This document shows positions 38,074 to 62,301 of a stretch of 62,445 nucleotides of DNA, one piece after another. The translations under genes and the position numbers were made by a program. The notes under the pieces were generated by a model, which saw only the letters and a program-made list of their open reading frames with translations, made no database searches and was not told the DNA's origin. Position 1 is the stretch's first letter. The number at the start of each line of letters is the position of its first letter. Source of the stretch: Candidatus Nomurabacteria bacterium (GTDB taxonomy: Bacteria > Patescibacteriota > Minisyncoccia > Phycocordibacterales > UBA9973); NCBI GenBank assembly GCA_031425235.1, contig JANPIZ010000003.1:1-62445 (forward strand), in the 5' to 3' direction.

Positions 38074-38119
38074 TAGGTTTATAGTATACATTGCTTTCAA
38101 TAAATCCAAGTATGACCTG

Positions 38120-38142
38120 TCAGTCACCTGACTTAGCATATG
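38120..38142. repeat. 23-bp exact direct repeat, left copy (candidate att site)
   Basis: tcagtcacctgacttagcatatg is identical to 51895-51917. It contains the imperfect palindrome TCAGTCA-CC-TGACTTA. Confidence 0.85.
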
Positions 38143-38356
38143 GCTGCTGGCGTCCTTGAGCAAGAACCGTCATCAGGATTGCCCTATAAGGCTTTCGTAG
38201 CTAGTTTTATAATAGCATTTCGACGGTACTTGAGCACTATAAAATGAGATAGTGCATTACTGAATTTTTCTAATCTTCGATCTGAGAAATAATTCTTGAT
38301 AAACACCTCCCATGTTGGAGAATTTAAATGATCAAGTTGTATAACCTTCCAAGTTG

Positions 38357-38680
38357 CTAAATATTAATCCCAGCTTCTTTGAGTTCTTTAGTAACTTTTT
38401 GGCGTATATGATTATCACGATCTGCAAAACCATTAGTGAACCACACTACAAGACCACCTTCATAGTCTCTTTCTACTCTTATCCCTTGCATCCCGTCTTC
38501 TACAATAGGACAAGCTTGATCATTTTTAAAACTATCTTCCCACATTTCATCGGTATATCTCTCTATAACATCAAGGCCATTTTTTTTAAGCACGTCTTTA
38601 ATTATTCCTAGTTCTGTAAATTCTCTACGATACTTCTCTTTATTTATATCATGATTGGAAAAATTTTGCTCAATTGACAT
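38357..38680 (-). CDS. Hypothetical protein (107 aa)
   Basis: ORF only. No motif recognised. Confidence 0.45.
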   Translation of the reverse strand: MSIEQNFSNHDINKEKYRREFTELGIIKDVLKKNGLDVIERYTDEMWEDSFKNDQACPIVEDGMQGIRVERDYEGGLVVWFTNGFADRDNHIRQKVTKELKEAGINI

Positions 38681-38746
38681 ATTGTTTTACTCTTAACGTT
38701 TTTGAATAATTATTTAGATGTTTTTTCTTCGAACTAGCTATCTTTG

Positions 38747-38854
38747 AGCTAGCCCGAGGTGGCTGACTGACTCAGTCTAGAACCTTACCCTGTGAGACCC
38801 CACAAGCGTTCTTTGACGACTTTCAGTATACCAAATTGAGGCGTCTCAGTCATA
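38747..38854. repeat. GC-rich ~108-bp repeat, copy B, with the same 22-codon ORF at 38785-38853 (minus)
   Basis: See copy A. All 3 nucleotide differences inside the ORF are synonymous. Confidence 0.85.
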
Positions 38855-38911
38855 CTCATTCCAACCCCCACAAGCCTTATTTCACGTCAAAATGAGACAA
38901 ATAAGACAGGT

Positions 38912-40186
38912 TTAGGGCTTTTCAGGTGGTGTCTCATTCTTGGGGACATCAACCCATTTAAGCTGATCCATGATCTTGTAATCTTTCACCTTTTCTCTAG
39001 CTCCAGCAAACCTATACCAAGGAAAGATGGAACGATTTTCTTTACCGTCTATTATTTCCACACCCTGTTGTGATTCGGTAAGTTTCTTAGGAGGCAAGAT
39101 ATCTTTGTTGTCTTCAAGCATAAAAATCTGACAATGTTCACCCTTACCGTAACGAGTAATAATTCTGGGTTTAATAATCCCTTTTCTTACCCACTTGTAA
39201 AAAGTAGGACCCTTAATATTAAATCTGCTTTCAATATCATATTTTGAATACCAGCTATCTTCGTCTTTTGCGACAGATGCAGGTATTTCTCCTTCATCAA
39301 TAGCTTTCTGGCAGACCAGACATTTGATGCCCCATTCGTCATACCAATTATCGCCTTCGGGAGTACCGTCGCCACATATAGCACAGCGATAACCCGCACC
39401 TTCAAGATGGAATCCTTTCGGATTTGCTTTTAGTTTTTCTGCACGAGCTTTATCCTTTTCTTTCATCTCGTCTACAAATTTTCCAAGTTGTTCCAATCTC
39501 CATTTTTCTTCCTGCCATTTTTTACCAGCTTCTTCTGTCAGACAAAAACGATCTCTATCTTCTGCAAATTTTTCATCAAACTCTTCCTCGTGTGCGGAAG
39601 TTTTTTCTATCTCACTCTTTTTAACATATCCGCATTCTGAATTTGTGCAGATATATTCTGTAATAAATTTTTCTTTAGTACTTGCATCCTTGCAATCAAG
39701 TTTTCCTTTGCAATTCGGACAAGGGTTCGGTTTCGATCTCCATTCTTCACCGTCTGAGAAAAATGCTCTTCTTGGTAGGCACTGATTAGGACAATCGTAC
39801 ATAAAAAACATTCTGTCTTCTTTTCCTTCTTCGGACCATAGATTTTTGAATGTTGGTTTTAGAAGATTGCGACAGGTTAGACAGCGTATATTTTCTGGTG
39901 CTTGTACTGTTTCATACAATTCGTCTTTTCTTTGGTCAGCATCCATCCATTTTTGGATTGTTTCCTCTTTATTTAAATATCTTTCGCCTGTTTGAAACAT
40001 CATACTCCAATCAAGAGCCATTTTTGACATAGCGTCAAGCATTTTCTGTGTTGGTTTTTTACCCTCAATCAATGGAGGATTTTTGATTGGCTCTGAATGA
40101 AGGCGTTCTAGGTCTCGGCATCGTTCAACGGTATGGCGGTCGTAGAGATCGATGTAATGTTGCTTGTCTTTAAGATGCTTTTCCAT
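38912..40186 (-). CDS. Hypothetical multi-zinc-ribbon protein with a C-terminal excisionase-like HTH
   Basis: CxxC pairs: CLTCRN, CPNQC, CPNCKGKLDC, CTNSECG, CAICGDG...CLVCQ. C-terminal FYKWVRKGIIKP. Confidence 0.5.
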   Translation of the reverse strand: MEKHLKDKQHYIDLYDRHTVERCRDLERLHSEPIKNPPLIEGKKPTQKMLDAMSKMALDWSMMFQTGERYLNKEETIQKWMDADQRKDELYETVQAPENIRCLTCRNLLKPTFKNLWSEEGKEDRMFFMYDCPNQCLPRRAFFSDGEEWRSKPNPCPNCKGKLDCKDASTKEKFITEYICTNSECGYVKKSEIEKTSAHEEEFDEKFAEDRDRFCLTEEAGKKWQEEKWRLEQLGKFVDEMKEKDKARAEKLKANPKGFHLEGAGYRCAICGDGTPEGDNWYDEWGIKCLVCQKAIDEGEIPASVAKDEDSWYSKYDIESRFNIKGPTFYKWVRKGIIKPRIITRYGKGEHCQIFMLEDNKDILPPKKLTESQQGVEIIDGKENRSIFPWYRFAGAREKVKDYKIMDQLKWVDVPKNETPPEKP

Positions 40187-40230
40187 AGGTTAATTATAGA
40201 AAATTTATTAAAGTTTTCCACCCCTCCACA

Positions 40231-40651: not shown

Positions 40652-41977
40652 ATGTCAGAAAAAATACAAATTGTGCATGTATCTGTTAGTGAGTTGCGAG
40701 CTTCTGAATATAATCCTCGTAAGTGGGATAAAGAAGCAGAGAGTCAGTTGAAAGAAAGTATTAAAAGGTTTGGGATAGTCGATCCGTTGCTTGTGAACTC
40801 AGCGGAAGAAAGAAAAAATATTGTTATCGGTGGGCATTTCAGATTGTCGGTGATAAAAGAGTTAGATATAGAAGAAGTTCCCGTTGTATATATTAACATT
40901 CCCGACATTGAAAAAGAAAAAGAGTTGAACATCAGACTTAATAAAAACACTGGAGAATTTGATTGGGACATCCTCAAAACATTCGACGAAACATTCTTGT
41001 CAGATATTGGTTTTACTTCCGAGGATATCGATAGCATCTTTGAAGAAGATAAAGTCGAGGAGCAATTCGATCTAAACAAAGAGCTAGCGAAATTAAACAT
41101 CGAAAAGATCACTGTCGAAAAGGGCGATGTGTATGATTTAGATGGTTCACGAATTATGTGTGGCGATAGTACAGTAGAAGCAGATATGTTGAAGCTATGC
41201 GGTGAACATAAAATAGACATGGTCATGACTGACCCGCCTTATATTTTGGACTATCTCCATGGAAAAAGTCGCCAAGGCAAAGCGACTGAGGGATTTGGTG
41301 CGAAGAAAAATCGTCGCTACCTTGAAACAGATATCTTGCCTGATAATTTTACAGAATTATGGATGGCAAATGTCCATAAAGTACAAGCCGATAACTTTTC
41401 CATTATTTGCTACGAGAACTGGAAGAACATCAGAATTATCTGGAACGAGATGGATAAATATTGGAAAGTGAAGAATATGCTCGTGTGGCATTTAGCCAAT
41501 CGAAACCAAGGATATGCGGGTAAGCATAAATTCTTTTCCAAATATGATATCGCCATGGTAGCAACCAGTAACCCACATGACGGTTTAAAGACTGAGCCAG
41601 AAGAAGAACTACTTGAGAATGAATACAACACCGCTTTGTTTGCTATCTCTGGTTCTCCGCAATGGGAAAGCTATGGCAAAGGCAAGAAGTACTGTCCCAC
41701 TGACCACATAGAGCATTTAGCGGCTGACGAAAAATCCTCAGGTCAAGCAATTATCTTCGGTACTAAACCACTTGAAATATTGATCCCATATATCAAAGTT
41801 CTAACTACTAGGGATCAACTCGTTCTTGAGCCATTTGGTGGGTCAGGTTCAACCTTGATTGCATCCATAAAGCTAAAACGTCGATGCTTTATTATGGAAA
41901 AATCTCCTGTTTATACAGAAGTTATTCTTAATCGTTGGGAGAAATTTACTGGTAAGAAAAGAGTTAAGTTATCTTAA
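40652..41977 (+). CDS. ParB-like nuclease domain fused to an N6/N4 DNA methyltransferase
   Basis: N-terminal ...YNPRKWDKEAESQLKESIKRFGIVDPLLVN...GGHFR (ParB/Srx fold), then MTDPPY and EPFGGSGSTLIA motifs. Confidence 0.85.
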   Translation: MSEKIQIVHVSVSELRASEYNPRKWDKEAESQLKESIKRFGIVDPLLVNSAEERKNIVIGGHFRLSVIKELDIEEVPVVYINIPDIEKEKELNIRLNKNTGEFDWDILKTFDETFLSDIGFTSEDIDSIFEEDKVEEQFDLNKELAKLNIEKITVEKGDVYDLDGSRIMCGDSTVEADMLKLCGEHKIDMVMTDPPYILDYLHGKSRQGKATEGFGAKKNRRYLETDILPDNFTELWMANVHKVQADNFSIICYENWKNIRIIWNEMDKYWKVKNMLVWHLANRNQGYAGKHKFFSKYDIAMVATSNPHDGLKTEPEEELLENEYNTALFAISGSPQWESYGKGKKYCPTDHIEHLAADEKSSGQAIIFGTKPLEILIPYIKVLTTRDQLVLEPFGGSGSTLIASIKLKRRCFIMEKSPVYTEVILNRWEKFTGKKRVKLS

Positions 41978-42523
41978 ATGAAGCATAATTATGAAAAATC
42001 AAAATTTCTTGAGGCTCTTCGTGAGTCTCCAGTTGTCGCGCGCGCCGCCAAAAAGGCAGGTATTTCCAAAGCCACCATTTACCGATGGATGAAGGATGTA
42101 CCTGACTTTAGGCGTGCAGTTAATTCGGCAATAAGAGAAGGCAATGCACATACTGGCGAAATGGTAGAGATGGTATTGGTAAAGAGAGCAATGGAGGGAA
42201 ATTTCAACGCAATGAAATTTTACTTAATTAACAACAATCCTAAATATGCCCCTAAGCGTACGATTGACCCCACTCCAATCTTCGTGCATAAACATGATGA
42301 TGAGTCAGAACCTTGCCAACTTTGTATTCGTGTAGAAGTTGAGCAACGATTTAAGAATAAAGTAATGCTACGAGAAATAAATCAAGAGATTGAAAGATTA
42401 GCAAATCCAAAAACAGAAGCGGATAGAAAGGAAGCCAAAGAATTTATGGACAAGGTTCTGGAAATGAGTAAAGAACAACGAAGGAGAGAGCAAGTAGATA
42501 AAGGGCTTGAAAGTATTATTTGA
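41978..42523 (+). CDS. HTH DNA-binding protein (phage terminase-small-subunit-like / homeodomain-like)
   Basis: VARAAKKAGISKATIYRWMKDVPDFRRAV. Its start abuts the methyltransferase stop. Confidence 0.55.
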   Translation: MKHNYEKSKFLEALRESPVVARAAKKAGISKATIYRWMKDVPDFRRAVNSAIREGNAHTGEMVEMVLVKRAMEGNFNAMKFYLINNNPKYAPKRTIDPTPIFVHKHDDESEPCQLCIRVEVEQRFKNKVMLREINQEIERLANPKTEADRKEAKEFMDKVLEMSKEQRRREQVDKGLESII

Positions 42524-43049
42524 TTTCAAAATCCCAATTGTCTTCGTATTCCTCAGCGAGGGGTGTCTTTATGTTATATTTTTCGCTCTTTAATCCTACA
42601 CGAAAGTTTCTCATAGTAACTGTCTTTACTTTTTTAGCTTCTTTCTTTTTTTCCTCGTGCCAGAATTTATTCTCTAGTGTTAGATAGTCTGCAACAACCC
42701 GTGCAGGGATTATGTAGAATTTGAATTGCTTGGTGTTTTGGCTTATGTTTACGAAACAATAAAATAAGTTAGCATCTTTTTTCTCGTCATACTTTTCATT
42801 CTTTTCATCTAATATCCAAGAGCTTAAGTAGTTTCCAAAAAGTTTTGATTTAACGATTTCTATGCGATTACTATAATTAGTTTTCACTTCCAACTTTAAC
42901 ATCCTGCCTGTATCTGGATCGGACACCAAGATATCGACTCCTTTTGTATTACCAAGAGTCATGTTTGCGTCTTTCCCACGCAAGGCTAGTTGTGATAGGA
43001 CTGCGAATTCTCCTGCGAGGGATACTCGTGATTTATTTATTTTTTCCAT
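42516..43049 (-). CDS. PD-(D/E)xK-type nuclease-fold protein (DUF4365-like)
   Basis: GEFAVLSQLALRG ... GVDILVSD ... LKLEVKT (D...ExK arrangement). Convergent with, and overlapping by 8 nt, the HTH gene. Confidence 0.5.
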   Translation of the reverse strand: MEKINKSRVSLAGEFAVLSQLALRGKDANMTLGNTKGVDILVSDPDTGRMLKLEVKTNYSNRIEIVKSKLFGNYLSSWILDEKNEKYDEKKDANLFYCFVNISQNTKQFKFYIIPARVVADYLTLENKFWHEEKKKEAKKVKTVTMRNFRVGLKSEKYNIKTPLAEEYEDNWDFEIK

Positions 43050-43145
43050 AGATTGTAGCGAGTTTTTAAAGTCTCAGTCAGATAGACAAAGAGCCCTCCG
43101 CCCGAGCGATGATCCGAAGACCATCCATACCAGTTTCCCGATATG

Positions 43146-43192
43146 ACTCGCTACAAGTACCCTGACGAAGGGTTCTTTATCTTGTAGCGAGT
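43146..43192. other. 12-bp stem hairpin; the arm sequence recurs at 43053-43066
   Basis: actcgctacaag ... cttgtagcgagt. ttgtagcgagtttt is also found directly upstream of the 42516-43049 start. Confidence 0.6.
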
Positions 43193-43334
43193 TTTATGAC
43201 CATATCCTTAGAGATTCTAAAGGGGTTAGGTCTCAACTTATTAATTTGTAATGAGATTATACCTCCTTTTTAGAGGCTTTGCCATACTACCTTAGATCAT
43301 GTGGGTTGTGTAGTCGAGTTACCAACAGGCGGTA

Positions 43335-43904: not shown

Positions 43905-43906
43905 AC

Positions 43907-46819
43907 TTAGAATTTTTTAATTACCACATCAATAAGACGGTTGAGATATTTGTGGAAATCAGAAATCTTAATTTTATTCTTATAGTCTTTTAAAATAAGC
44001 TCTTGCAAGGTACGCTTTGCCTCCTTAATAAATTCTTCTCTTTTAGAAGAATCTTGCCATCCTTCGTCTAGGACATTTTCTAAACGTGAGGTCATTTCTT
44101 TAATGAATTCTTTTACAACATCTTTATCAGATTCGGTTAAAAATTCTTCTGAAATTACATAGAGGCCATATTCATGGAGTGTGTAGCCAAGTTCTTTTGC
44201 TTCTTCTGTCTTTGTCTTAATATCGTTAAGGAGTTCGTAATATCTTTTAATGCGTTCAGCAAGGTCAATTTGATGCTTCTCAAACTCTGCTCGGATAGCA
44301 ATCAATCGCTCCCCAAACCCCTTAAATGCTGGATGTGTATCAATGTTTATTGATATCTCACGCTTCAGCATTTTCTCAAGATTTAGTGCTTTTTCTTCTT
44401 CTGGAAGTTTATCTAGTTTATTTAGTGTCGCTAGATCATGAATATTTAACTCTCTGAAATTCTTGGTTATACCCTCATAGTCAATTTTGTCTTGAATAAG
44501 ACTTTTTATTTTTACACCATATTCAGCGAGTGAAAAAGCATCAATCCCTTCAGCTTGGAATTCCTTACTAAATGCAAGATAAAAACTAGTAACCCATTCA
44601 AACTTTCTAAGGTAATCAATCAAGAATGGATCAGGAGAAAGGATTTCAAATAACATCTTAAGGCGACCGTATTTATCTTTAAAGAATTGCTGTTTACTTT
44701 GATTATCAATAAATATTTTCAAGCATCTACGCAGATTATCGATTGAGGGATCTTCAATATTAACTCCCTCAAAAAGACTCATAACTTCGCTAAGTACTGT
44801 TATAAAGTCTTGTTTTAGTCGATCAATATTAATCATTGCACTATCGACAACACTTTCATCAAAATTGAGAGCATCGTACAGATTTTTAGTTACGCCATAG
44901 TAGTCGATAATCTTTCCACACCCTTTGTTCGGATATACTCGGTTTGTACGAGCAATAGCCTGAAGGAGATTGTGGTCTCTTAGTGGTTTGTCTAAATACA
45001 TAACTTGTTCAACTGGTGCATCAAAACCAGTTAAAAGCATATCGCAAACGAGCAGAAACTTTAGAGGGTGGTTGGGGTCTTTGAATTGTTCAATAACTTT
45101 CTCTCTTTTTTGTTTATTTGTATTATATTTTTTAAGGTCATCACTTTCACTATTAGGATCACCAGGAGAATAGACTACCTCTGACCATTCAGGCGGTACA
45201 AGTTTATCAAGTAAATCTTTATACTTTGCTGTTGCTTCTCGGTCATAGCAGACAATTTGTGCCTTGAAACCATTTGGAAGCACATAAAGCTTGTAATGTT
45301 CAACAATGTCTTGAATTACAGCTTCCATACGCTTGTCGAGTTTTACTAGTGCTTCTTTCTTTCCATATTTTTTAGTTAGAACTTCTTTTTGGGCAGTATT
45401 TAGATCATTTGTTAACTCATTAAATTGTTTGTCTACCTGTTCTTCGTCAATAAAAAACTTAGATAGTCGTGCCTCATAAGTTACTGGGAGAGTGGCACCG
45501 TCATCTATAGCTTGTTGAATAGAATAGTAATCTAAATATCTTTCACCATCTTCTCCGAAGTTTCTATGAGTATTAAGGGTTAACTTGTCGATCGGTGTTC
45601 CTGTGAATCCAAAGAAGAAAGCATCTCTGAATGCATTACGCATCTTGATAGCAGAAATTCCTTCATTATCTCGATGAGCTTCATCAGATAAAACTATGAC
45701 GTTACCTTCGATTTCTTCTATTTCTTCAAGCTCGCTGAATTTCTGAATAGTGGATATGAAGATACCTCTGTCTGCACCTTTAATCTTTTTCTCAAGGTCT
45801 TTGCGAGATTCAACACGAATCAAATTTTGTCCACCCCATGCGTCAAACTCTTCAAAAACTTGATCATCAAGATCAATGCGATCTATTAGAATAAATACTT
45901 TAGGATTTTTAAGTTCAGGATCGTAGCGAAGTTTCCACGCAGTAAAAAACATTGTAAGTGTTTTTCCAGATCCTTGTGTGTGCCAGATGAGTCCTTTTTT
46001 ATGATCACCACCCTTTACTCTATCAACCATCTTATTAGTAGCGTAAAATTGCTGATATCTAGTGATCTTTTTTGTGATACCGTCTTTTTTCTTTTCAAAT
46101 ACAATAAAGTTTTTGATGATATCAAGTAATTGTTCTTTACTTAATAGATAATGCAGAGTTGAATCTAGCTCATTTTCAAACAGTTTAGTTTCGATATGCG
46201 GATCTTCTCGCCAAGTAAGGAAATATTGTTTGGGAGCAAATGTAGTTCCATAAACAGTTTTAAGTCCATCGGTTGCAATATTGAAACAATTAGTCAGAAA
46301 CAACTTGGGTGCAACTCTTTCGTATCGCTTGATTTGATCGATAGCATTTTCAAAATTAACAGAACTAGAGGCAGTTGGGCTTTTTGCTTCAATATCGGAT
46401 ACAGGTAATCCATTAAGAAATACCAATACATCAGTTCTAATGTTTTCAGTAACTCCTTCAAAATAAAATTGATTAGTGATAACGAAGCGATTGTTCTCAT
46501 GATTATCAAAGTCCACTAGCTTATAATCACGACTTTTGCCAGTTTCTGGATCTTTTATATTTACTCCATTTCGTAATGCTAAAAGGAAAGCTTCATTGGT
46601 ATCAAGTTTCTTTACTTCTCGAACAATAGTCGAAGCGACATCTTCATTCACTTTGTTTATTGTTTGAACTGCCTCTAGTAAATGAGGGACAATGATATAT
46701 TCATTTTCAAATGAACGAAGTTTGGAAAATGCTTCAGCGGTAATATACTCATATCCAAGCTTTCCTTGCATGAATTTTATAATGTGATTTTCAATTGTGT
46801 ATTGTTCGTTGAATTTCAT
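43907..46819 (-). CDS. hsdR: Type I restriction enzyme R subunit
   Basis: 970 aa with helicase motif I (HTQGSGKTLTMFF), motif II (VLSDEAHR) and an HsdR-type N-terminal nuclease region. Confidence 0.9.
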   Translation of the reverse strand: MKFNEQYTIENHIIKFMQGKLGYEYITAEAFSKLRSFENEYIIVPHLLEAVQTINKVNEDVASTIVREVKKLDTNEAFLLALRNGVNIKDPETGKSRDYKLVDFDNHENNRFVITNQFYFEGVTENIRTDVLVFLNGLPVSDIEAKSPTASSSVNFENAIDQIKRYERVAPKLFLTNCFNIATDGLKTVYGTTFAPKQYFLTWREDPHIETKLFENELDSTLHYLLSKEQLLDIIKNFIVFEKKKDGITKKITRYQQFYATNKMVDRVKGGDHKKGLIWHTQGSGKTLTMFFTAWKLRYDPELKNPKVFILIDRIDLDDQVFEEFDAWGGQNLIRVESRKDLEKKIKGADRGIFISTIQKFSELEEIEEIEGNVIVLSDEAHRDNEGISAIKMRNAFRDAFFFGFTGTPIDKLTLNTHRNFGEDGERYLDYYSIQQAIDDGATLPVTYEARLSKFFIDEEQVDKQFNELTNDLNTAQKEVLTKKYGKKEALVKLDKRMEAVIQDIVEHYKLYVLPNGFKAQIVCYDREATAKYKDLLDKLVPPEWSEVVYSPGDPNSESDDLKKYNTNKQKREKVIEQFKDPNHPLKFLLVCDMLLTGFDAPVEQVMYLDKPLRDHNLLQAIARTNRVYPNKGCGKIIDYYGVTKNLYDALNFDESVVDSAMINIDRLKQDFITVLSEVMSLFEGVNIEDPSIDNLRRCLKIFIDNQSKQQFFKDKYGRLKMLFEILSPDPFLIDYLRKFEWVTSFYLAFSKEFQAEGIDAFSLAEYGVKIKSLIQDKIDYEGITKNFRELNIHDLATLNKLDKLPEEEKALNLEKMLKREISINIDTHPAFKGFGERLIAIRAEFEKHQIDLAERIKRYYELLNDIKTKTEEAKELGYTLHEYGLYVISEEFLTESDKDVVKEFIKEMTSRLENVLDEGWQDSSKREEFIKEAKRTLQELILKDYKNKIKISDFHKYLNRLIDVVIKKF

Positions 46820-46820
46820 A

Positions 46821-48095
46821 TTATTTCTTTGATGTCTTTTTCTTCTTGGCTTTATCCTTCTTTTTTGTAAACTGATTTAAAAGTATTTTTGCTTTTACTA
46901 GTACTTCGTCAAAACATATTATTTCTATATTTCTAAGATTCTGTCTAAATAAATCGAAATTTTTTCTTGAGTCCTTGGGGATATCACCAATCTTTCCAGC
47001 AACAATAATACATCTCGGTTCAAATACTTCGAAATCGCCCGTAGCCACATTTGAGTAATTTCTTAAAAGAGTATGTTTTTGATCAAGCACTTGGTTAATT
47101 GCACCAGAAATACCAGAAGAAATTGGATATATTTTCCCAGCTTTTCTGTATGCAGTTTTATGTAAAAGTGGTGCTTTATGAGTTTTAATCTCTATAATCG
47201 TGGCATTGTCAGTTAAATTATTTTTATAAATAAAGTCAGCATATCGTGCCCCCTTATCATTGCCTTTTTGACCACCAACATAGTATTCATCTTGAAATAA
47301 AAAATGAGGAGCGGCGAAAAGATAGGAGAATATCCAAGAGTTATCTTTAAAGAATTTATGCCATTCTCCCTCGAGATTTTTACCAGTCTTTTTTGATAGA
47401 ATTTTTTCAAATTGAGCAAGCACTTTATCAATATAGACTTGATCTATTTTTTCCTTGGTTCGAATTAATGCAACAGCATTCATGTCATAGTTTTGAATTT
47501 GATTTTGAGTAAAATCTAAAATTGAGGCAGAATCATTGTCTGATAGTTTTGCTCCAGAAGATTTAACTTCTTGTAAAATTCCCTTAATTGTCCCAGATAC
47601 ATACGGAATCTTTTGAGATTTAAGCTTAAGCTCTTTAGAATCAGCTAAAAGGTTATTAATTGTTATTTTTAGATCTTTAGAGTGTGTAAGATTCTTAGGT
47701 CTGAGAGTGCTATAGATTTTTTTATAATCATCATCATTCAAAATAAACTCTCCCTTTTTAAGCTTAAGACTTGTTAGTTTTTTAGAAATAACAATTTTTG
47801 TAACTTGAGGAAATTTATCGTTAACAACTGAAAGGAGAGAGGAGGTGTCATAGGTAAAACCGTAACCACGAGTCATTGCTCTTAGGCCTTTTAAGTCAGC
47901 ACGAGCGACTCCATCAAAATGAATTTCTGAAATGAGAGTATATTTTTGCTTACCAAATCGGTCAAATGGATAAACAATCTCATAAAGTTTTTTCTTAAAG
48001 ACTTCTCTCGATTTAACCTCGAAATCAGCCTCAGTGTTTTTTGCAAAGTAAATCTCTTTTGTTTTTAAGTTTTCTTTGATAATTTCAGTAGTCAT
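46821..48095 (-). CDS. DUF4263 (Shedu SduA-like) PD-(D/E)xK nuclease with an unrecognised ~240-aa N-terminal domain
   Basis: C-terminal half: WHKFFKDNSWIF...GARYADFIY...ATIIEIKTHKAPLL...GAINQVLDQ...PRCIIVAGK...NIEIICFDEVL. Sits 1 nt from the hsdR start and 7 nt from the hsdMS stop. Confidence 0.7.
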   Translation of the reverse strand: MTTEIIKENLKTKEIYFAKNTEADFEVKSREVFKKKLYEIVYPFDRFGKQKYTLISEIHFDGVARADLKGLRAMTRGYGFTYDTSSLLSVVNDKFPQVTKIVISKKLTSLKLKKGEFILNDDDYKKIYSTLRPKNLTHSKDLKITINNLLADSKELKLKSQKIPYVSGTIKGILQEVKSSGAKLSDNDSASILDFTQNQIQNYDMNAVALIRTKEKIDQVYIDKVLAQFEKILSKKTGKNLEGEWHKFFKDNSWIFSYLFAAPHFLFQDEYYVGGQKGNDKGARYADFIYKNNLTDNATIIEIKTHKAPLLHKTAYRKAGKIYPISSGISGAINQVLDQKHTLLRNYSNVATGDFEVFEPRCIIVAGKIGDIPKDSRKNFDLFRQNLRNIEIICFDEVLVKAKILLNQFTKKKDKAKKKKTSKK

Positions 48096-48102
48096 GTAAC
48101 TA

Positions 48103-50373
48103 TTATTTTTTAGTCATAATATCTTGCATCAGTGCTTTTTTCAGAGTCTCAGCCTTTTGAGTAATATCTTTAATATTTTTTAAATAAGAATCCATTGTAG
48201 AAAATAGCCTAGCTATATCTTTCTGTTCTTTTAGAGGCGGAATTGAGATGGGCATAGAGTATATGATAGGCAATCGAAGAGATTTTACAGTACTTCCAAC
48301 AGCATTATCTGCGAAGAAATTTCTGTTAGCAAAAATAAAATAAAAAAGATACAAAGGGTCTACATCTTTATTTTTTGTGGAAATTGCGTAAGCTCGTTGA
48401 TGTAAATCAAACTTACCACTGTAATAGCGAGGGATAAATTCTGCCCCTTCTCCAGGTAATATTATGGCTGTTTTATCAAACAAATATTTATTACTTCTTT
48501 TTATTATTATAGATCTATCAAAAAGAGGATATTCTCCATTATCCACAGCGTCTTGAGAATTAGTTTTTCCATTTTTTATGTCAGCAATTTCTCCAAGAGT
48601 TGTCTTTGTCCATCCCTTTCTATTAGTTAAATCTACCAATATGTCGTTAAATACTTCCCAATTATTTTTTAAGGCATTTGTATATAAATTTTCTGATTTA
48701 TTTAAGTCTTTCTTTGACTGTGAAATATCAAGAATTTGATCTTCAATGTCTGAACTAATATAAAGTTTTGTCTTTAGGATGTAGTCTTTGTCTTTAATTT
48801 CAGTAAGGTGAACTACTTTTGCATAATTTGCTTTGTCGGTATAAGTATCATACGTTTTAATAATTTTCTGTATGTCTTGGGTTCTTAATGAGTTTTGATT
48901 TTTTCCTTCAGAAAAATCTTTTTCTGCATCAATTATTAATATTTTTCCTTTATGATTTTCTGGTTTATTTGTATTTAAAATAAGAATAACCGCTGGAATT
49001 GTTGTTCCATAGAAAAGTTTTGATGGGAGTGCGATGACTGCATCAATTAAATCATTTTTTAGAATCTGTTCACGAATACGACCTTCGGCACCCCCACGAA
49101 ACAACACACCGTGCGGAAGTACTATTCCAGCTCTTCCATTCTGATTCATCGATTTAATAATATGAAGTACAAAAGCATAGTCTGCATTTTTATCTGGCGG
49201 AGCATCATATCCTTCAAGGCGACCAAACTTTGTTTTGAATGCTTCATATTCCCAGTCTTTTATTGAGTAAGGTGGGTTAGCTACTACTATGTCAAAAGTT
49301 TGTAAATTCCCTTGTTGATTAAGAAATTGAGGATTTGCGAGCGTGTCACCTCTACGGATATCAGCGCTATCGAGTCCATGAAGAAACATGTTAATTTTTG
49401 CAATCGCAAAAGTAGCAAGATTCTGTTCTTGTCCATAAAGATAAAGTGTCTTTGCAATTTTTTCTCCAGACTTTTGTTTAAGATAATCATAAGCTTCTAA
49501 AAGAAAACCGCCTGATCCAACAGTAGGGTCGTAGATATGATCTTTCTGATGGGGTTTAAGAATCCCCATGATAACTCTTTCAACTTCTCGAGGAGTATAA
49601 AACTCGCCACCTTTCTTACCCGCATCGGCTGCGAATTGTTTTATAAGATATTCATATGCATCACCCAATAAGTCTGAACTAATATAAGTATTACCGAAAT
49701 TGTATTGTGAAAAGTGGTTAATAAGACGTTGAAGTGTTTCGTTGGGAAAACGATCTTTATTGGCGAAATCAAGATCTTCAAAAATCTTATCGAGTTTGGG
49801 ACTATTTGCATTTGCTAACTTATCAAAAATATCATTTAGCTTCTGTCCGATGTTTTCAGCTTGTTCAGTAATCTTTTCCCATCGACAATCTTTTGGTATC
49901 TGAAAACGGTGATTGTAGTCAGCACGAGCAATCGTTACATCGTTATATTCTTTCATGACGGTATTGTATTCTTCATCCCACACGTCACTCATTCGTTTAT
50001 AGAACAAAAGACCAAAAATATATTTTTTATAATCAGAGCTGTCAATTTTCCCTCGGAGAATGTCAGCACTCTTCCAAAGGAATGATTCAAGTTGGGGTAG
50101 AGTGAGCTTACTACCCATTTTATCGACGATAGCTTCTATGTCTTGAGGGCGATATTTACGATCACCTCGCTTCCCAGCTCGAAGTGGCACAAGAGTACCG
50201 TCCTTTTCCCAGTTGCGGAGAGTGTCTGGGTGAATGGAGAAAATATCTGCTACTTGGCTGATAGAGAGTAGTTCTGGCATTCCTTTAAGTTTTGCTTGTA
50301 TATCTTTCCTCATTTGTATAAATAGGAGTCTATCAGACTCTAAATACAAAGTCAAGTGTTCATAGGTTTTCAT
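48103..50373 (-). CDS. hsdM: Fusion of an excisionase/MerR-type HTH, type I N6-adenine methyltransferase (HsdM) and a single-TRD half HsdS
   Basis: LSISQVADIFSIHPDTLRNWEKDG (HTH). FYTPREV, DPTVGSGGFL and VANPPYS (methylase). C-terminal TRD plus the conserved LPPLKEQKDIARLFSTMD helix (HsdS). Confidence 0.85.
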   Translation of the reverse strand: MKTYEHLTLYLESDRLLFIQMRKDIQAKLKGMPELLSISQVADIFSIHPDTLRNWEKDGTLVPLRAGKRGDRKYRPQDIEAIVDKMGSKLTLPQLESFLWKSADILRGKIDSSDYKKYIFGLLFYKRMSDVWDEEYNTVMKEYNDVTIARADYNHRFQIPKDCRWEKITEQAENIGQKLNDIFDKLANANSPKLDKIFEDLDFANKDRFPNETLQRLINHFSQYNFGNTYISSDLLGDAYEYLIKQFAADAGKKGGEFYTPREVERVIMGILKPHQKDHIYDPTVGSGGFLLEAYDYLKQKSGEKIAKTLYLYGQEQNLATFAIAKINMFLHGLDSADIRRGDTLANPQFLNQQGNLQTFDIVVANPPYSIKDWEYEAFKTKFGRLEGYDAPPDKNADYAFVLHIIKSMNQNGRAGIVLPHGVLFRGGAEGRIREQILKNDLIDAVIALPSKLFYGTTIPAVILILNTNKPENHKGKILIIDAEKDFSEGKNQNSLRTQDIQKIIKTYDTYTDKANYAKVVHLTEIKDKDYILKTKLYISSDIEDQILDISQSKKDLNKSENLYTNALKNNWEVFNDILVDLTNRKGWTKTTLGEIADIKNGKTNSQDAVDNGEYPLFDRSIIIKRSNKYLFDKTAIILPGEGAEFIPRYYSGKFDLHQRAYAISTKNKDVDPLYLFYFIFANRNFFADNAVGSTVKSLRLPIIYSMPISIPPLKEQKDIARLFSTMDSYLKNIKDITQKAETLKKALMQDIMTKK

Positions 50374-50503
50374 AGGTCTGCATACTAACTCACCTTGTAA
50401 AATAAGGGTAATTAGTTATCAACAAATGCATCCTAGACTCCTAAGAGCCGTTGCGTCATTCCTTAGGTGTAGGTCAATTATCAACCAAACACAAGGAATA
50501 TAT

Positions 50504-51799
50504 ATGAAACATAAGCAAGTAGAGCAAGCCCCCACGGCACCCCTTAAATACTGTCTGTATTCTAGGAAATCCACAGAGGCTGAGGATAAGCAGGCTCTCT
50601 CAATAGAATCTCAGGTAAAGGAGATGCAAGCTCTAGCAGAGCGAGACCATCTCCATATAGTAGAGATAAAGCGAGAGGCACACTCGTCGAAAGAAGTTGG
50701 GCAAAGACCTGTATACAATGAAATGCTAGCAGAGATCAAACAAGGCAAGTTCAACGCCATCCTTACTTGGGCACCTGACAGATTAAGTAGAAATGCAGGA
50801 GACTTAGGGTCAGTGGTGGATTTGATGGATCAGGGAAAGTTAATTGAGATAAAAACATATGGGCAGAAATTTACAAACAATCCAAACGAGAAGTTCCTCC
50901 TGATGATTCTAGGATCACAAGCGAAACTGGAGAATGATAATAAGGCAGTGAATGTACAGCGAGGTCTACGAACAAGGTGCGAGATGGGATGGAGACCAGG
51001 AGTTGCACCGACTGGCTACCTGAATGAAAAGCATGTAGATAAAAAGTGCCAATGCAGGATTGATCCAAAACGAGCACCAGTTATTAAGCAGATGTTTGAG
51101 AAAGTCGCATCTGAACAATGGAGTGGAAGAAAAGTATATCGATGGCTAAGAGAAATTAATTTCAAAACGCATAGAGGAAAGCCATTAGTGTTAGCAAATA
51201 TTTATATCATCTTAAGAAATCCATTTTATTATGGTGACTTTGAATATCCAAAAGGTGGCGGTCAATGGTATACAGGAAAGCAGACACCGATTATAGATAA
51301 AACACTTTACGATAGAGTGCAGATGACTCTTAATCAGAATTATATTCCCAAAACTGAGAGTAAAGAATTCGCATTTACTAAACTCATACACTGTGGCTAC
51401 TGCGGATCAGGCATATCGGCTGATGAGAAATTTAAGAAACTTAAAGATGGTGGAGTGAATCGCCATGTCTACTATTTCTGTACGAAAGCAAGGAACATAG
51501 ACTGCAAAAATCCAGCTATCAATGAGCCAAACTTAATAACAGAACTTATTGAATTGATGGATAAGGTAGACTTAGATGAGCTTGGAATTAAAACAAGAAT
51601 CGAGGATGAGATAAGTAGGTTTAATAAATTTAGAACTGGAGTATTAGGGCATAAGCAAGAAAAAGTATCACTGGATATAGATGTCCGAAACTACACGAAG
51701 TACTTACTCAAAGATGGAACACTAATGGAGAAAAGAGAACTACTATCTTGTATGAAAAGTAAACTAATTATAAAAGAAAAGAAAGTCTGTTTCGCATAA
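50504..51799 (+). CDS. Large serine recombinase
   Basis: YCLYSRKSTEAEDKQALSIESQ (catalytic Ser region), DRLSRN, a recombinase domain and a CGYCGSG...YYFC zinc ribbon. ATG at 50504 preferred over 50426. Confidence 0.85.
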   Translation: MKHKQVEQAPTAPLKYCLYSRKSTEAEDKQALSIESQVKEMQALAERDHLHIVEIKREAHSSKEVGQRPVYNEMLAEIKQGKFNAILTWAPDRLSRNAGDLGSVVDLMDQGKLIEIKTYGQKFTNNPNEKFLLMILGSQAKLENDNKAVNVQRGLRTRCEMGWRPGVAPTGYLNEKHVDKKCQCRIDPKRAPVIKQMFEKVASEQWSGRKVYRWLREINFKTHRGKPLVLANIYIILRNPFYYGDFEYPKGGGQWYTGKQTPIIDKTLYDRVQMTLNQNYIPKTESKEFAFTKLIHCGYCGSGISADEKFKKLKDGGVNRHVYYFCTKARNIDCKNPAINEPNLITELIELMDKVDLDELGIKTRIEDEISRFNKFRTGVLGHKQEKVSLDIDVRNYTKYLLKDGTLMEKRELLSCMKSKLIIKEKKVCFA

Positions 51800-51812
51800 A
51801 TAAAAGATAAAC

Positions 51813-51838
51813 AAAAAGCACCCAGTTGGGTGCTTTTT
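51813..51838. terminator. Bidirectional terminator
   Basis: aaaaa-gcaccc-agtt-gggtgc-ttttt. Confidence 0.8.
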
Positions 51839-51894
51839 GTTCTGAATACTGCGCTCAGCAGGTATGCAATGACGGGATAGTGCTCGTATGCGTA

Positions 51895-51917
51895 TCAGTC
51901 ACCTGACTTAGCATATG
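51895..51917. repeat. 23-bp exact direct repeat, right copy (candidate att site), 4 nt from the tRNA-Gln 3' end
   Basis: Identical to 38120-38142. Flanking similarity extends to about 38110-38150 and 51885-51927, with indels. Confidence 0.85.
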
Positions 51918-51921
51918 ACGG

Positions 51922-51992
51922 CTGGGAGACTAGGACTCGAACCTAGATAACGTCCTCCAGAGGGACGTGTCCTACCATTAGACGATCTCCCA
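51922..51992 (-). tRNA. tRNA-Gln (anticodon CUG)
   Basis: Folds by hand into a cloverleaf: acceptor tgggaga/tctccca, anticodon stem cgtcc/ggacg with loop ctCTGga, T arm ctagg-ttcgagt-cctag. No encoded CCA. Confidence 0.9.

Positions 51993-62229: not shown

Positions 62230-62301
<72 letters not shown>

What the first reader, a model, noticed from the sequence alone, without database searches (positions are those of the whole stretch)
38110..51992. ~13.8-kb island bounded by a 23-bp perfect direct repeat with a palindromic core, ending at a large serine recombinase next to tRNA-Gln
The sequence tcagtcacctgacttagcatatg occurs exactly twice, at 38120-38142 and 51895-51917, in the same orientation. 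Looser similarity extends about 10 nt on either side (gtatg...; ...gctgg).
- The repeat contains an imperfect palindrome, TCAGTCA-CC-TGACTTA. This has the form of a recombinase half-site pair around an asymmetric central dinucleotide.
- The right copy lies 4 nt from the 3' end of tRNA-Gln (51922-51992). It is about 95 nt downstream of the stop of a large serine recombinase gene (50504-51799).
- Everything between the repeats is accessory-type cargo: R-M, a Shedu-like nuclease, ParB-MTase, a phage-like HTH protein and a zinc-ribbon protein.
- The left copy is read through by the spurious N-terminal extension of ORF 36850-38163.
Inference: the repeats are attL and attR of an integrated element mobilised by the serine recombinase.
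Basis: partly seen in the sequence, partly recalled or inferred. Interest (0 to 1): 0.7.

Follow-up and report, generated by a model that had tools for sequence, protein, structure and literature searches.

The report
Serine-recombinase defence island at tRNA-Gln
This is a 13.8-kb mobile island carrying phage-defence genes, inserted at the very end of a tRNA-Gln gene in a tiny uncultured (Parcubacteria/CPR) bacterium; the same recombinase and the same 23-base site recur across this whole bacterial group, so it is a widespread but ordinary kind of gene-shuttling element.

Summary
The 23-mer occurs exactly twice (38120-38142 and 51895-51917). The right copy lies 2-4 nt from tRNA-Gln and 95 nt after an intact large serine recombinase (LSR) gene. 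Type I R-M, Shedu, a ParB-methylase, a TerS-like HTH protein and a LOOT RNA lie between the copies.

The attL/attR reading is supported by comparison with other genomes. The exact 23-mer is found in 75 metagenome contigs and 25 Patescibacteria species genomes, nearly always abutting tRNA-Gln. In 13 of 41 sites an LSR gene points at it, often about 100 nt away. A 96%-identical LSR sits at the same site in another Parcubacterium with different cargo. A sister-sample contig pair diverges exactly at the site.

Two points are revised:
- The sequence linked to each arm switches at the invariant GCTG (tRNA nt 71-74), 4-7 nt right of the 23-mer. It does not switch at the palindrome's CC.
- The locus is a tandem array. 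The propeller gene with a 116-nt "D1" repeat looks like an older cassette without a recombinase.

No isogenic empty site and no circular junction were found, so current mobility is inferred. The closest analogues are SCC elements and tycheposons. I rate it a new member of a known kind.

The parts
36621..36736 (-). D1a. This is one copy of a conserved element of about 95-116 nt whose end mimics a tRNA 3' end. It marks the distal end of an older cassette without a recombinase (D1a + propeller gene).
   Evidence: It is 91% identical to 38741-38856. The same family occurs in the same orientation in at least 12 other loci. There it either directly follows the 23-mer or lies 0.6-2 kb from the tRNA-proximal site with unrelated genes between. 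The strand is inferred weakly from G-U-type one-sided changes.
36850..38073 (-). PD40 beta-propeller protein. It is probably cargo of an older cassette rather than core flank.
   Evidence: Pfam PD40. The best homologue is only 60% identical and the neighbourhoods are not syntenic. Its position between D1 and the site matches that of variable genes elsewhere.
38120..38142 (+). Left copy of the 23-mer (junction attL). On the favoured model it is the displaced original tRNA-distal half-site.
38146..38149 (+). Invariant GCTG. This is the inferred strand-exchange region at the left junction.
   Evidence: GCTG is near-invariant in 79 unique sites. Linkage to the arms switches here.
38143..38168 (+). 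Left end of the island (P' arm): gctGCTGgcgtccttgagcaagaacc. It is a degenerate mimic of the tRNA-Gln 3' end.
   Evidence: It aligns with the tRNA 3' end at attR. Other elements carry pseudo-tRNA or D1 at the same place.
38357..38680 (-). 107-aa ORF with no family match.
38741..38856 (-). D1b, the second copy of the D1 element. It probably marks the original left end of the LSR element proper. The 0.6 kb to its left would then be a fused remnant cassette.
38912..40186 (-). 424-aa protein rich in CxxC motifs, with a weak excisionase-type HTH at its C-terminus. Function unknown; it is a candidate accessory or directionality factor.
   Evidence: HTH_17 only at E=0.06. A 34%-identical homologue lies in a related island, L121.
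40652..41977 (+). ParB-N-terminal / N6-N4 DNA methyltransferase fusion. It is a backbone gene of the element family.
   Evidence: Pfam, PADLOC and PHROG hits. It recurs at 61-68% identity next to the LSR in L043, L046, L050, L063, L076, L078, L082, L093 and L117.
41978..42523 (+). HTH protein resembling the N-terminus of a small terminase subunit. It is a backbone gene.
   Evidence: PHROG terminase-small-subunit families, best 5e-11. Pfam HTH_Tnp_1_2 / Sf6_terminase, both below cut-off. It recurs after the ParB-methylase gene in related islands.
42516..43049 (-). 177-aa ORF of unknown function.
   Evidence: Only phrog_26985, a family of unknown function.
43108..43232 (-). LOOT RNA (Rfam RF03000). 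It is a recurrent non-coding component of these islands.
   Evidence: 77.1 bits against a gathering score of 46.4. It is also found in 8 of 13 related LSR loci scanned.
43335..50373 (-). Defence cargo operon: YgjP metallopeptidase (43335-43904), type I HsdR (43907-46819), Shedu SduA (46821-48095), and an HsdM-HsdS fusion with an N-terminal MerR-type HTH (48103-50373).
   Evidence: HsdR, HsdMS and YgjP recur at 88, 85 and 68% identity with a different LSR and without Shedu in L120.
50504..51799 (+). Large serine recombinase, 431 aa (alternative start at 50426).
   Evidence: Resolvase, Recombinase and Zn_ribbon_recom domains. A Y-S-R-K-S-T catalytic motif is visible in the sequence. Best solved relative is the SPbeta integrase. 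Best named family is CcrB, far below its cut-off. It matches PHROG integrase phrog_95 at 6e-65.
51809..51842 (.). Bidirectional intrinsic terminator after the LSR gene.
51834..51894 (+). Conserved 'P arm' of the element. It includes a hairpin at 51844-51867 supported by covariation.
   Evidence: It is conserved in 40 of 79 unique sites. In the hairpin, 4 of 8 pairs show compensatory changes, 93% of cells are paired, and 0 of 500 shuffles reach the observed score.
51895..51917 (+). Right copy of the 23-mer (junction attR). On the favoured model it was supplied by the element.
51921..51924 (+). Invariant GCTG, which corresponds to tRNA-Gln nucleotides 74-71. This is the inferred strand-exchange region at the right junction.
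51920..51992 (-). tRNA-Gln(CTG), intact. It is the integration target.
   Evidence: ARAGORN; Rfam 60.8 bits.

Best explanation
**What it is.** Window 38.1-51.9 kb is an integrated genomic island. It belongs to a large, apparently undescribed family that circulates among Patescibacteria (Parcubacteria).

**The att site (inferred).** The island's large serine recombinase inserts the circular element at the extreme 3' end of tRNA-Gln. The site is about 40-50 bp long.
- The tRNA-distal half is the 23-mer, preceded by about 8 nt and followed by 3 nt.
- The centre is the invariant GCTG (tRNA nt 71-74).
- The other half is the tRNA acceptor/T-arm. On the element, a mimic of that arm takes its place.

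**Why the 23-mer appears twice.** Host and element sites share the 23-mer, so it ends up at both junctions.
- The tRNA-proximal copy comes with the element, together with its conserved P arm and hairpin.
- The distal copy is the displaced original.

**Tandem accretion.** Every junction keeps a usable site. New elements therefore stack next to the tRNA and push older ones outward. In this window the array reads:
1. D1a plus the propeller gene, an old cassette with no recombinase.
2. A 0.6-kb remnant.
3. The LSR element, which runs from D1b to the P arm.

**Element content.** The backbone is the LSR, a ParB-methylase, a TerS-like HTH protein and LOOT RNA. The cargo here is a type I R-M operon with an embedded Shedu gene.

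**Shown versus inferred.**
- Shown: the repeats, genes and RNAs; the family-wide conservation and geometry; the modular exchange of cargo; the site-exact polymorphism; the linkage switch at GCTG.
- Inferred: that the LSR is the catalyst; the exact crossover dinucleotide; current excision competence; the route of cell-to-cell transfer.
For: **Structure in the window**
- The repeat is exact and unique.
- The LSR is intact, with three domains and the catalytic motif.
- The tRNA is intact.
- The island's 4-mer distance from the host profile is 1.6-2.1, against 1.0-1.3 for most host windows. GC is 0.357 against 0.375.

**Distribution of the site**
- The exact 23-mer occurs in 75 metagenome contigs and 25 GTDB species genomes, all Patescibacteria.
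- It abuts tRNA-Gln in most of them, or a pseudo-tRNA/D1 element otherwise.
- The LSR gene lies on the same strand and ends within 3 kb of the site in 13 of 41 unique sites with enough flank. Seven sites, this window's attR included, show a spacing of 92-101 nt.

**Horizontal movement**
- In L085, the LSR is 96% identical in protein (86% in DNA) and the P arm, site and tRNA are 85% identical. The matching host segments are only 64-72% identical in DNA, and the cargo differs.
- The R-M cargo recurs at 85-88% identity with a 55%-identical LSR in L120.

**Recombination at the site**
- L017 and L039 are 99.8% identical over 7011 nt up to 9 nt past the 23-mer, then essentially unrelated.
- Identical P arms are joined to different tRNAs or to D1.

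**Position of the crossover**
- Positions +1..+3 follow the left-arm class (Fisher p = 1.4e-8; p = 1e-4 within sites that have a tRNA on the right).
- Positions +8..+12 follow the right-arm class.
- GCTG in between is near-invariant.
- Identical tRNAs paired with different left arms differ at +1..+3.

**Tandem arrays.** L063, L011/L018 and L027 show them.
Against: - No isogenic empty site was found. The nearest relative of the flanking propeller protein is 60% identical, and L111 shares only the tRNA.
- No circular attP junction was found. Every P-arm/non-tRNA junction seen is compatible with a tandem array.
- About half of the P-arm sites with enough flank have no LSR within 3 kb.
- No dyad symmetry is centred on GCTG, although LSR sites are usually pseudo-symmetric. 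The only clear palindrome is centred on CC.
- One internal duplication (L045) differs at 23-mer position 8 and at +1..+3. That pattern fits a crossover inside the 23-mer better.
- The 23-mer also lies next to tRNA-Glu (L038) and tRNA-Trp (L100).
- The sequences used for the linkage test are not phylogenetically independent.
Confidence: 0.72

Rival explanations
1. The 23-mer itself is the crossover core. An LSR dimer binds the inverted repeat TCAGTCA/TGACTTA and exchanges strands at the asymmetric CC.
For: - This is the only strong dyad in the region. It extends outward to ATGC...GCAT.
- CC is non-palindromic, as an LSR central dinucleotide must be.
- Natural variant sites in arrays change exactly this dinucleotide (CC to TC or TT).
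- The L045 duplicates are identical to the left of position 8 and differ at +1..+3.
Against: - Under this model, the three bases after the 23-mer should follow the right arm. They follow the left arm instead (A[TC]G in 4 of 40 P-arm sites against 28 of 39 other sites, p = 1.4e-8). The two parental-type classes (B+tRNA and P+non-tRNA) both contradict the model.
- Four recent pairs share sequence through +7..+9 before diverging.
- The ungapped dyad score at CC is 9 of 22, no better than at other centres.
Confidence: 0.18
2. The island is a fixed relic. It arrived by site-specific integration, but the LSR no longer acts on these sites, or only acts in another role. The perfect repeats persist because the 23-mer is selected for something else. 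One candidate is a 3'-trailer hairpin needed for tRNA-Gln processing or termination.
For: - The 23-mer with its flanking ATGC forms a hairpin directly after the tRNA on the tRNA strand.
- It is 100% conserved even at sites with no LSR or P arm.
- Many P-arm islands have lost the LSR.
- No excision product was seen.
Against: - The LSR ORF is intact, and LSRs of 76-96% identity are abundant.
- A relative's tRNA-Gln(CTG) lacks the 23-mer, so it is not a general requirement of the tRNA.
- A site-exact polymorphism between sister samples indicates ongoing exchange.
- The distal copy (attL) is not next to any tRNA and is still perfect.
Confidence: 0.15
3. Another mechanism generates the array, and the LSR is merely cargo or a resolvase. 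Candidates are a host tyrosine/Xer-type recombinase, an integron-like system that uses D1 plus the 23-mer as an attC-like site, or homologous recombination between repeated tRNA-like ends.
For: - Cassette-like units of 1-3 genes, each ending in D1 plus the 23-mer, occur without any recombinase (L011/L018, L015, L032, L065).
- Pseudo-tRNA remnants of variable length (9-23 nt) resemble the displaced fragments left by tyrosine integrases.
Against: - No tyrosine recombinase turned up in the window or among the ORF translations read in six recombinase-less P-arm loci. Those six loci were read by eye and not scanned against Pfam.
- The LSR shows a fixed orientation and a spacing of about 100 nt to the site in several distinct elements.
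- The breakpoints are sharp, at +7..+9. That is not expected from homologous recombination across a 38-bp block.
Confidence: 0.08

Closest known systems
Staphylococcal cassette chromosome (SCCmec and relatives) with CcrAB/CcrC recombinases (comparison from established knowledge)
   Same: - The recombinase is a large serine recombinase. CcrB is the best-scoring named family for this LSR.
- Insertion is at one fixed chromosomal site, at the 3' end of a housekeeping gene.
- A short identical sequence is kept at every junction.
- Tandem composites and recombinase-less pseudo-elements accumulate at the site.
- R-M and other accessory cargo are common.
   Different: - The target is tRNA-Gln, not rlmH.
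- The host is Patescibacteria, not Staphylococcus.
- The LSR scores 136 bits against a CcrB cut-off of 900, so it is not a Ccr orthologue.
- There is a single recombinase gene rather than a ccrA/ccrB pair.
- The element has a conserved P-arm hairpin, a D1 element and LOOT RNA. I know of no SCC counterpart for these.
Tycheposons of Prochlorococcus (bioRxiv 10.1101/2020.12.28.424599)
   Same: - Cargo-carrying integrative elements sit next to tRNA genes.
- Successive insertions push older elements into the island.
- Partial tRNA copies mark the junctions.
- Degraded remnants occur.
- Some types are PICI-like and carry terS.
- A minority use a large serine recombinase.
   Different: - Most tycheposons (910 of 937) use tyrosine recombinases, and many carry replication genes. 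No replication gene was found here.
- Here the duplicated block lies mostly downstream of the tRNA rather than inside it.
- The host phylum is different.
Phage and ICE serine integrases (phiC31, Bxb1, A118, TP901-1, SPbeta SprA) (comparison from established knowledge; SPbeta match)
   Same: - The domain architecture is the same, and the SPbeta integrase is the best solved relative.
- The recombinase gene sits at one end of the element, adjacent to its att site.
- The functional site is about 40-50 bp.
   Different: - Classical attP and attB share little beyond the central dinucleotide. Here they share at least 30 bp.
- Classical sites are pseudo-symmetric about the crossover. Here the inferred crossover lies about 20 bp from the only clear dyad.
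- There are no phage structural genes.
- No directionality factor has been identified.
tRNA-targeting genomic islands of the Islander/TIGER type (PMC4383910)
   Same: The island lies at a tRNA gene. The regenerated target and the displaced fragment mark the two ends. The integrase gene is at one end.
   Different: According to that paper's abstract, those islands are catalysed by tyrosine integrases and split the tRNA body. Here the enzyme is an LSR, and the exchange point is at the last 4 nt of the tRNA.

Membership tests
Large serine recombinase (serine integrase) | N-terminal resolvase-type catalytic domain with the Y-x-R-x-S nucleophile motif | tested here: met
   PF00239 at 4.9e-20. The sequence YSRKST is visible in the alignment.
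Large serine recombinase (serine integrase) | Recombinase domain (PF07508) followed by a zinc-ribbon domain (PF13408) | tested here: met
   2.8e-14 and 3.4e-7, both above their gathering scores.
Large serine recombinase (serine integrase) | Coiled-coil motif within the zinc-ribbon domain that controls directionality | not tested
   No structure was predicted. About 80 residues follow the second Cys pair and could form it.
Large serine recombinase (serine integrase) | Conservative recombination between about 40-50-bp sites with a 2-bp staggered cut at the site centre | not testable with these tools
   This needs an in vivo or in vitro recombination assay. Comparative linkage only bounds the exchange point to GCTG.
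Site-specific integrative genomic island | Direct repeats at both ends, one abutting the target gene, with an integrase gene at one end | tested here: met
Site-specific integrative genomic island | Unoccupied site in a close relative | tested here: inconclusive
   No close relative of the host is available. There are 15-16 unique sites in other genomes where tRNA-Gln plus the 23-mer has no P arm. They look like attB, but several have cassette-like neighbours.
Site-specific integrative genomic island | The same element in different hosts or contexts, and composition unlike the host | tested here: met
Site-specific integrative genomic island | Circular excised form | not testable with these tools
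No contig with a demonstrable circular junction was found.
SCC element (Ccr-mediated) | Recombinase is an orthologue of CcrA/CcrB/CcrC | tested here: not met
   CcrB 135.9 bits against a cut-off of 900. CcrA 60.6 against 700. CcrC 55.1 against 900.
SCC element (Ccr-mediated) | Integration at the 3' end of rlmH (orfX) | tested here: not met
   The target is tRNA-Gln.
SCC element (Ccr-mediated) | Identical short sequence at every junction; tandem composites and recombinase-less elements | tested here: met
Phage satellite (PICI-like) | Integrase plus a packaging-redirection gene (terS or capsid-remodelling) plus replication and regulation modules | tested here: inconclusive
   Only the N-terminal HTH of the 181-aa protein matches TerS families (5e-11). 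No primase, replication or capsid gene was found. IMG/VR lists seven related loci on six contigs as viral contigs, and no matching structural genes were seen in them.
Integron | IntI tyrosine recombinase with attI, and cassettes ending in attC | tested here: not met
   No tyrosine recombinase is present. D1 plus the 23-mer resembles a cassette boundary only in arrangement.
LOOT RNA (Rfam RF03000) | Match to the covariance model above its gathering score | tested here: met
   77.1 bits against 46.4, covering the full-length model.
Shedu (SduA) defence | SduA C-terminal (DUF4263) nuclease domain | tested here: met
   PF14082 at 5.7e-22. PADLOC SduA at 1.1e-65.

The most novel reading that the evidence does not exclude
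This would be a gene-capture platform shared across the Patescibacteria phylum. One highly conserved serine recombinase family and one near-universal site of about 38 bp at tRNA-Gln would build tandem arrays of defence, metal-resistance and metabolic cassettes. The recombinase would act both on its own element and, in trans, on recombinase-less cassettes bounded by the 23-mer and a tRNA-like D1 element. Dedicated non-coding parts (P-arm hairpin, D1, LOOT RNA) would take part in recombination, regulation or transfer. That would make it a main route of gene flow in these reduced, conjugation-poor bacteria. It would also provide a ready-made integrase and landing-pad pair for their genetics.
Probability: 0.3. 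Interest if true: 0.7.

Novelty: new member of a known kind. Interest (0 to 1): 0.5.

Why it matters
- **Gene flow in CPR bacteria.** Patescibacteria (CPR) are a large share of bacterial diversity. They have tiny genomes and few recognised mobile elements, and they are hard to manipulate. This analysis points to a family of serine-recombinase islands with a near-universal attachment site at tRNA-Gln. That would explain how defence systems (R-M, Shedu), copper-resistance genes and other accessory genes move between distant CPR lineages.
- **A context for LOOT RNA.** It gives the orphan LOOT RNA a genomic context.
- **A possible genetic tool.** It offers a natural recombinase and site pair that could be tested for integrating DNA into these organisms.
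- **An unusual site layout.** The long block shared by attP and attB, with the exchange point apparently offset from the only palindrome, is unusual for serine integrases. A cleavage-mapping experiment would be worthwhile.

Tried and rejected
1. **Empty site through the flanking proteins.** Exact-protein look-ups of Gmad2, the LSR, the deaminase and the propeller protein returned only Logan contigs of one sample (SRR20217183), or nothing. Propeller homologues are at most 60% identical and not syntenic. L007 has tRNA-Gln(CTG) 0.7 kb from the propeller gene, but in the opposite orientation and without the 23-mer.
2. **Filled and empty pairs among 100 loci.** I looked for pairs that share one flank. 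None was a clean filled/empty pair, although the search did show exchange exactly at the site.
3. **Paralogy of the two 424-437-aa ORFs that each lie next to a D1 copy.** Rejected; there is no similarity.
4. **D1 as a known RNA.** There is no Rfam hit even at E <= 1. Single-sequence folds are not better than shuffles. RNAalifold support is weak: -4.1 kcal/mol, with mostly one-sided changes.
5. **Extra degenerate att sites in the window.** None was found next to D1a, D1b or tRNA-Thr.
6. **A dyad centre for the att site.** No centre stands out.
7. **LOOT as a guide-like RNA complementary to att.** It shares only 7-mers with the att region. 198 of 500 shuffles share an 8-mer, so this is at chance level.
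8. **The 23-mer in viral contigs.** There are no exact matches.
9. **Literature.** No paper on this system was found in five searches. The supplement of the LOOT paper is not held.
10. **LSR as an hsdS phase-variation invertase.** Rejected. There is one specificity domain, no inverted repeats, and the sites are direct repeats.

Full report
**1. Observation**

The 23-mer TCAGTCACCTGACTTAGCATATG occurs exactly twice, at 38120-38142 and 51895-51917, in direct orientation. No other match appears at up to 3 mismatches, and none is expected by chance. Apart from one chance hit, none appears even at 7 mismatches. Similarity extends to 31 nt at 94%, through a shared GCTGG at +4..+8.

ARAGORN places tRNA-Gln(CTG) at 51920-51992 on the minus strand, and Rfam places it at 51922-51992. 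The right copy therefore ends 2-4 nt from the tRNA 3' end.

The ORF 50426/50504-51799 carries Resolvase, Recombinase and Zn_ribbon_recom domains. It shows a YSRKST catalytic motif, and its best solved relative is the SPbeta integrase. Most homologues are 431 aa, which supports the 50504 start. A bidirectional terminator follows the gene.

Features between the repeats, in order:

| Coordinates | Strand | Feature |
|---|---|---|
| 38357-38680 | - | 107-aa ORF, no match |
| 38912-40186 | - | 424-aa Cys-rich ORF |
| 40652-41977 | + | ParB/N6-N4 methyltransferase |
| 41978-42523 | + | HTH protein matching terminase-small-subunit families |
| 42516-43049 | - | 177-aa ORF |
| 43108-43232 | - | LOOT RNA |
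| 43335-43904 | - | YgjP |
| 43907-46819 | - | Type I HsdR |
| 46821-48095 | - | Shedu SduA |
| 48103-50373 | - | HsdM-HsdS fusion |

**2. Organism and flanks**

The window carries a 16S rRNA gene. The names attached to the LSR homologues, and to all 25 genomes that hold the 23-mer, place the site and the recombinase in Patescibacteria/Parcubacteria. That is where I place the host.

On the right lie a Gmad2-domain protein and CTP synthase. On the left lie a PD40 propeller protein (true start about 38073) and a TadA-like deaminase. The island's tetranucleotide profile is farther from the host profile than most host windows (1.6-2.1 against 1.0-1.3), and its GC is 0.357 against 0.375.

**3. The site is not private to this genome**

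The exact 23-mer is present in 75 JGI/ENA metagenome contigs. It is also present in 25 GTDB species-representative genomes, all Patescibacteria, with one hit contig each. The lineages include Nomura-, Campbell-, Nealson-, Zambryskii- and Staskawicz-bacteria, Minisyncoccales and Paceibacterota. It is absent from IMG/VR.

I oriented all copies alike and looked at both flanks.
- **Right flank.** It is almost always NNN-GCTG followed by one of three things. The first is a real tRNA-Gln (CTG or TTG), or once each tRNA-Glu and tRNA-Trp. The second is a degenerate tRNA-3'-end-like stretch. The third is a conserved element of about 95 nt that I call D1.
- **Left flank.** It is either a conserved 60-nt "P arm" (40 of 79 unique sites) or unrelated DNA. 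Only the last 8 nt or so of the unrelated type (aTGCgtN) are conserved.
- **Shared block.** The block common to all sites is therefore about 38 bp.

This rules out the "dispersed repeat" refutation. The sequence is site-specific.

**4. Link to the recombinase**

LSR homologues are extremely abundant.

Among 41 unique sites with at least 3 kb of left flank, 13 have an LSR gene on the same strand that ends within 3 kb of the site. That is 10 of 22 P-arm sites and 3 of 19 other sites. In seven sites, this window's attR included, the stop codon is 92-101 nt from the 23-mer.

The ParB-methylase and TerS-like HTH genes recur upstream of the LSR. LOOT RNA is found in 8 of 13 related loci. These genes and the RNA form the backbone of the element family.

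**5. Evidence for horizontal movement and for recombination at the site**

- **Same recombinase, different host.** In Parcubacteria GW2011_GWC1_35_21 (L085), a 96%-identical LSR (86% in DNA) sits beside an 85%-identical P arm, 23-mer and tRNA-Gln. The matching host segments are only 64-72% identical in DNA, and the cargo is different.
- **Same cargo, different recombinase.** This window's HsdR, HsdMS and YgjP recur at 88, 85 and 68% identity beside a 55%-identical LSR, without Shedu, in L120.
- **Site-exact polymorphism.** L017 and L039 come from sister samples. They are 99.8% identical over 7011 nt up to 9 nt past the 23-mer, and essentially unrelated beyond that point.
- **Shared arms, different partners.** Identical P arms are joined to different tRNA-Gln genes (L020/L042, L052/L099, L096/L107), or to a tRNA in one contig and to D1 in another (L057/L063).
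- **What is missing.** I found no isogenic empty site. The closest propeller homologue is 60% identical and not syntenic, and L111 shares only the tRNA. I also found no demonstrable circular junction.

**6. Where the exchange happens**

I classed each of the 79 unique sites in two ways:
- the left arm as P or other, using only the distal part of the arm;
- the right arm as tRNA or other.

I then tested each position for association with each class.

| Positions (relative to the 23-mer) | Association |
|---|---|
| -10..-1 | Follow the left-arm class |
| +1..+3 | Follow the left-arm class: A[TC]G in 4 of 40 P sites against 28 of 39 other sites (Fisher p = 1.4e-8; p = 1e-4 among tRNA-flanked sites alone) |
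| +4..+7 (GCTG) | Near-invariant |
| +8..+12 | Follow the right-arm class |

A crossover at CC predicts the opposite behaviour for +1..+3. It is contradicted in both parental-type classes. Recent pairs agree with the linkage result:
- Shared left arms stay identical through +7..+9.
- Identical tRNAs with different left arms differ at +1..+3 (window against L111; L050 against L072).

GCTG corresponds to tRNA-Gln nucleotides 71-74 (window 51921-51924 and 38146-38149). I therefore place the exchange there. On this view the 23-mer is the conserved tRNA-distal half of both attB and attP.

Caveats:
- No dyad is centred on GCTG.
- One internal duplication (L045) fits a crossover inside the 23-mer.
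- Variant sites in arrays change the CC.
- The sites are not phylogenetically independent.

The palindrome is real, and with the flanking ATGC it forms a hairpin. Its role is open. It could be an LSR or accessory-protein binding site, or a tRNA trailer structure.

**7. The locus is an array**

D1 (window 36621-36736 and 38741-38856, 91% identical) belongs to a family found in at least 12 other loci. It always has the same orientation relative to the 23-mer. It appears in two positions:
- directly after the 23-mer (L011, L018, L027, L063);
- 0.6-2 kb from the tRNA-proximal site, with unrelated genes between. These include what read by eye as a type II methyltransferase and its partner, an aminotransferase, an NTPase-like protein and a DUF3298-like protein.

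The window's propeller gene occupies exactly that second position. L063 is a complete 12.6-kb island: a neighbouring element's P arm, the 23-mer, D1, cargo, ParB-methylase, HTH protein, LSR, P arm, the 23-mer and tRNA-Gln.

P-arm islands without an LSR carry what read by eye as CopA/CsoR-like, Dsb-like, toxin-antitoxin or type I R-M genes.

I read the window as three stacked modules:
1. D1a plus the propeller gene, an old cassette.
2. A 0.6-kb remnant carrying the 107-aa ORF.
3. D1b through the P arm, the LSR element.

**8. Non-coding parts**

- **P-arm hairpin (51844-51867).** It has compensatory changes at 4 of 8 pairs, 93% of cells paired, and 0 of 500 shuffles reaching the observed score.
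- **D1.** Its end mimics the tRNA-Gln 3' end. Its predicted helix shows only G-U-type one-sided changes on the minus strand, so support for a structure is weak.
- **LOOT.** It shows no complementarity to the att region beyond chance.

The functions of all three are unknown.

**9. Comparison with known systems**

- **SCC elements.** They work most like this system: an LSR, one fixed chromosomal site, an identical short sequence at each junction, composites and recombinase-less elements. CcrB is the best named family for this LSR. However, the score (136 bits against a cut-off of 900) and the target exclude membership.
- **Tycheposons.** They share the tRNA-side tandem accretion, the partial-tRNA junctions, the TerS-bearing types and a minority of LSRs. 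They are mostly tyrosine-recombinase elements with replication genes.
- **Classical phage serine integrases.** They share the enzyme architecture. They lack the long block shared by attP and attB.

Five literature searches found no description of this family.

**10. Verdict**

| Item | Verdict |
|---|---|
| Observation | Confirmed |
| attL/attR-of-an-LSR-element reading | Supported at about 0.7 |
| Crossover position and "host flank" | Revised |
| Novelty | New member, and probably a large unrecognised family, of a known kind of element |
| Interest | Moderate |

Interest rests mainly on the breadth across the phylum, the unusual site layout, the context it gives LOOT RNA, and possible use as a genetic tool.

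Noticed in passing
window 43108-43232 (-); also L043, L050, L063, L073/L085, L082, L093, L117: LOOT RNA (Rfam RF03000, function unknown) lies inside the island and in 8 of 13 related LSR loci. It is usually about 0.4 kb upstream of the ParB-methylase gene and divergent from it; once it is 175 nt upstream of the LSR. It looks like a backbone component of this element family.
   Followed up: partly
window 36621-36736 and 38741-38856; L011, L015, L018, L019, L027, L032, L044, L063, L065, L067, L098: D1 is a conserved element of about 95-116 nt with no Rfam match. Its end mimics the tRNA-Gln 3' end (GGTTCTAGACTGAGTCAGTCAGCC). It starts with the palindrome GACTGA-C-TCAGTC and ends with TCTCAGTCA, motifs that also occur in the 23-mer. 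It marks cassette boundaries. Whether it acts as RNA or DNA is unresolved.
   Followed up: partly
window 51844-51867 (within P arm 51834-51894): This hairpin (GAATAC-YGCG-CTCA-GCRG-GTATGC) shows clear compensatory changes across 33 elements. It lies between the LSR terminator and the att site, outside the usual footprint of a serine integrase. Its function is unknown.
   Followed up: partly
window 46821-48095 within 43335-50373: A Shedu (SduA) gene sits between hsdR and a fused hsdM-hsdS gene that has an N-terminal MerR-type HTH and a single specificity domain. The otherwise 85-88%-identical operon in L120 has different DNA at that position.
   Followed up: partly
window 40405-40444 and 40471-40510: Two copies of a short GC-rich hairpin motif (GCCCTATAGTTCGGGC / GCCCTATAGTTCTGGC) lie in the 465-nt gap upstream of the ParB-methylase gene. 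Other islands carry LOOT at that place.
   Followed up: no
window 8922-9254: A second YgjP-like fragment (56% identical to residues 75-185 of the island's YgjP) lies elsewhere in the window. It may be a remnant of another R-M locus.
   Followed up: no
window 19818-19972 (+); 396-1950 (-); 62228-62301 (-): There is a cobalamin riboswitch just above its gathering score (37.2 against 31.5), a complete 16S rRNA gene, and tRNA-Thr(CGT). tRNA-Thr(CGT) lies 4-8 kb beyond tRNA-Gln in several related loci too, which suggests a conserved host backbone on that side.
   Followed up: no
L038 (tRNA-Glu) and L100 (tRNA-Trp): In two contigs the exact 23-mer abuts a tRNA other than Gln. These could be secondary targets, element-borne tRNAs or rearrangements.
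   Followed up: no
L120 9929-11278 (+) and 11340-12599 (-); L118/L121 (same 25.5-kb contig): Pairs of LSR genes occur in one locus (convergent in L120). IMG/VR classifies six contigs holding seven such LSR loci as viral, although no matching phage structural genes were seen.
   Followed up: no
window about 36677 and about 39847 (Logan contigs of SRR20217183): An independent short-read assembly of the same sample breaks inside D1a and again inside the 424-aa ORF. The stretch around attL is therefore not independently confirmed by that assembly.
   Followed up: partly
three bases after the 23-mer in all loci: The trinucleotide after the 23-mer decides whether the tRNA's CCA end is genome-encoded. 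atg and gtg give CCA. acg, gct and aaa do not. Because the trinucleotide travels with the left arm, insertion of an element can change whether CCA is encoded.
   Followed up: no
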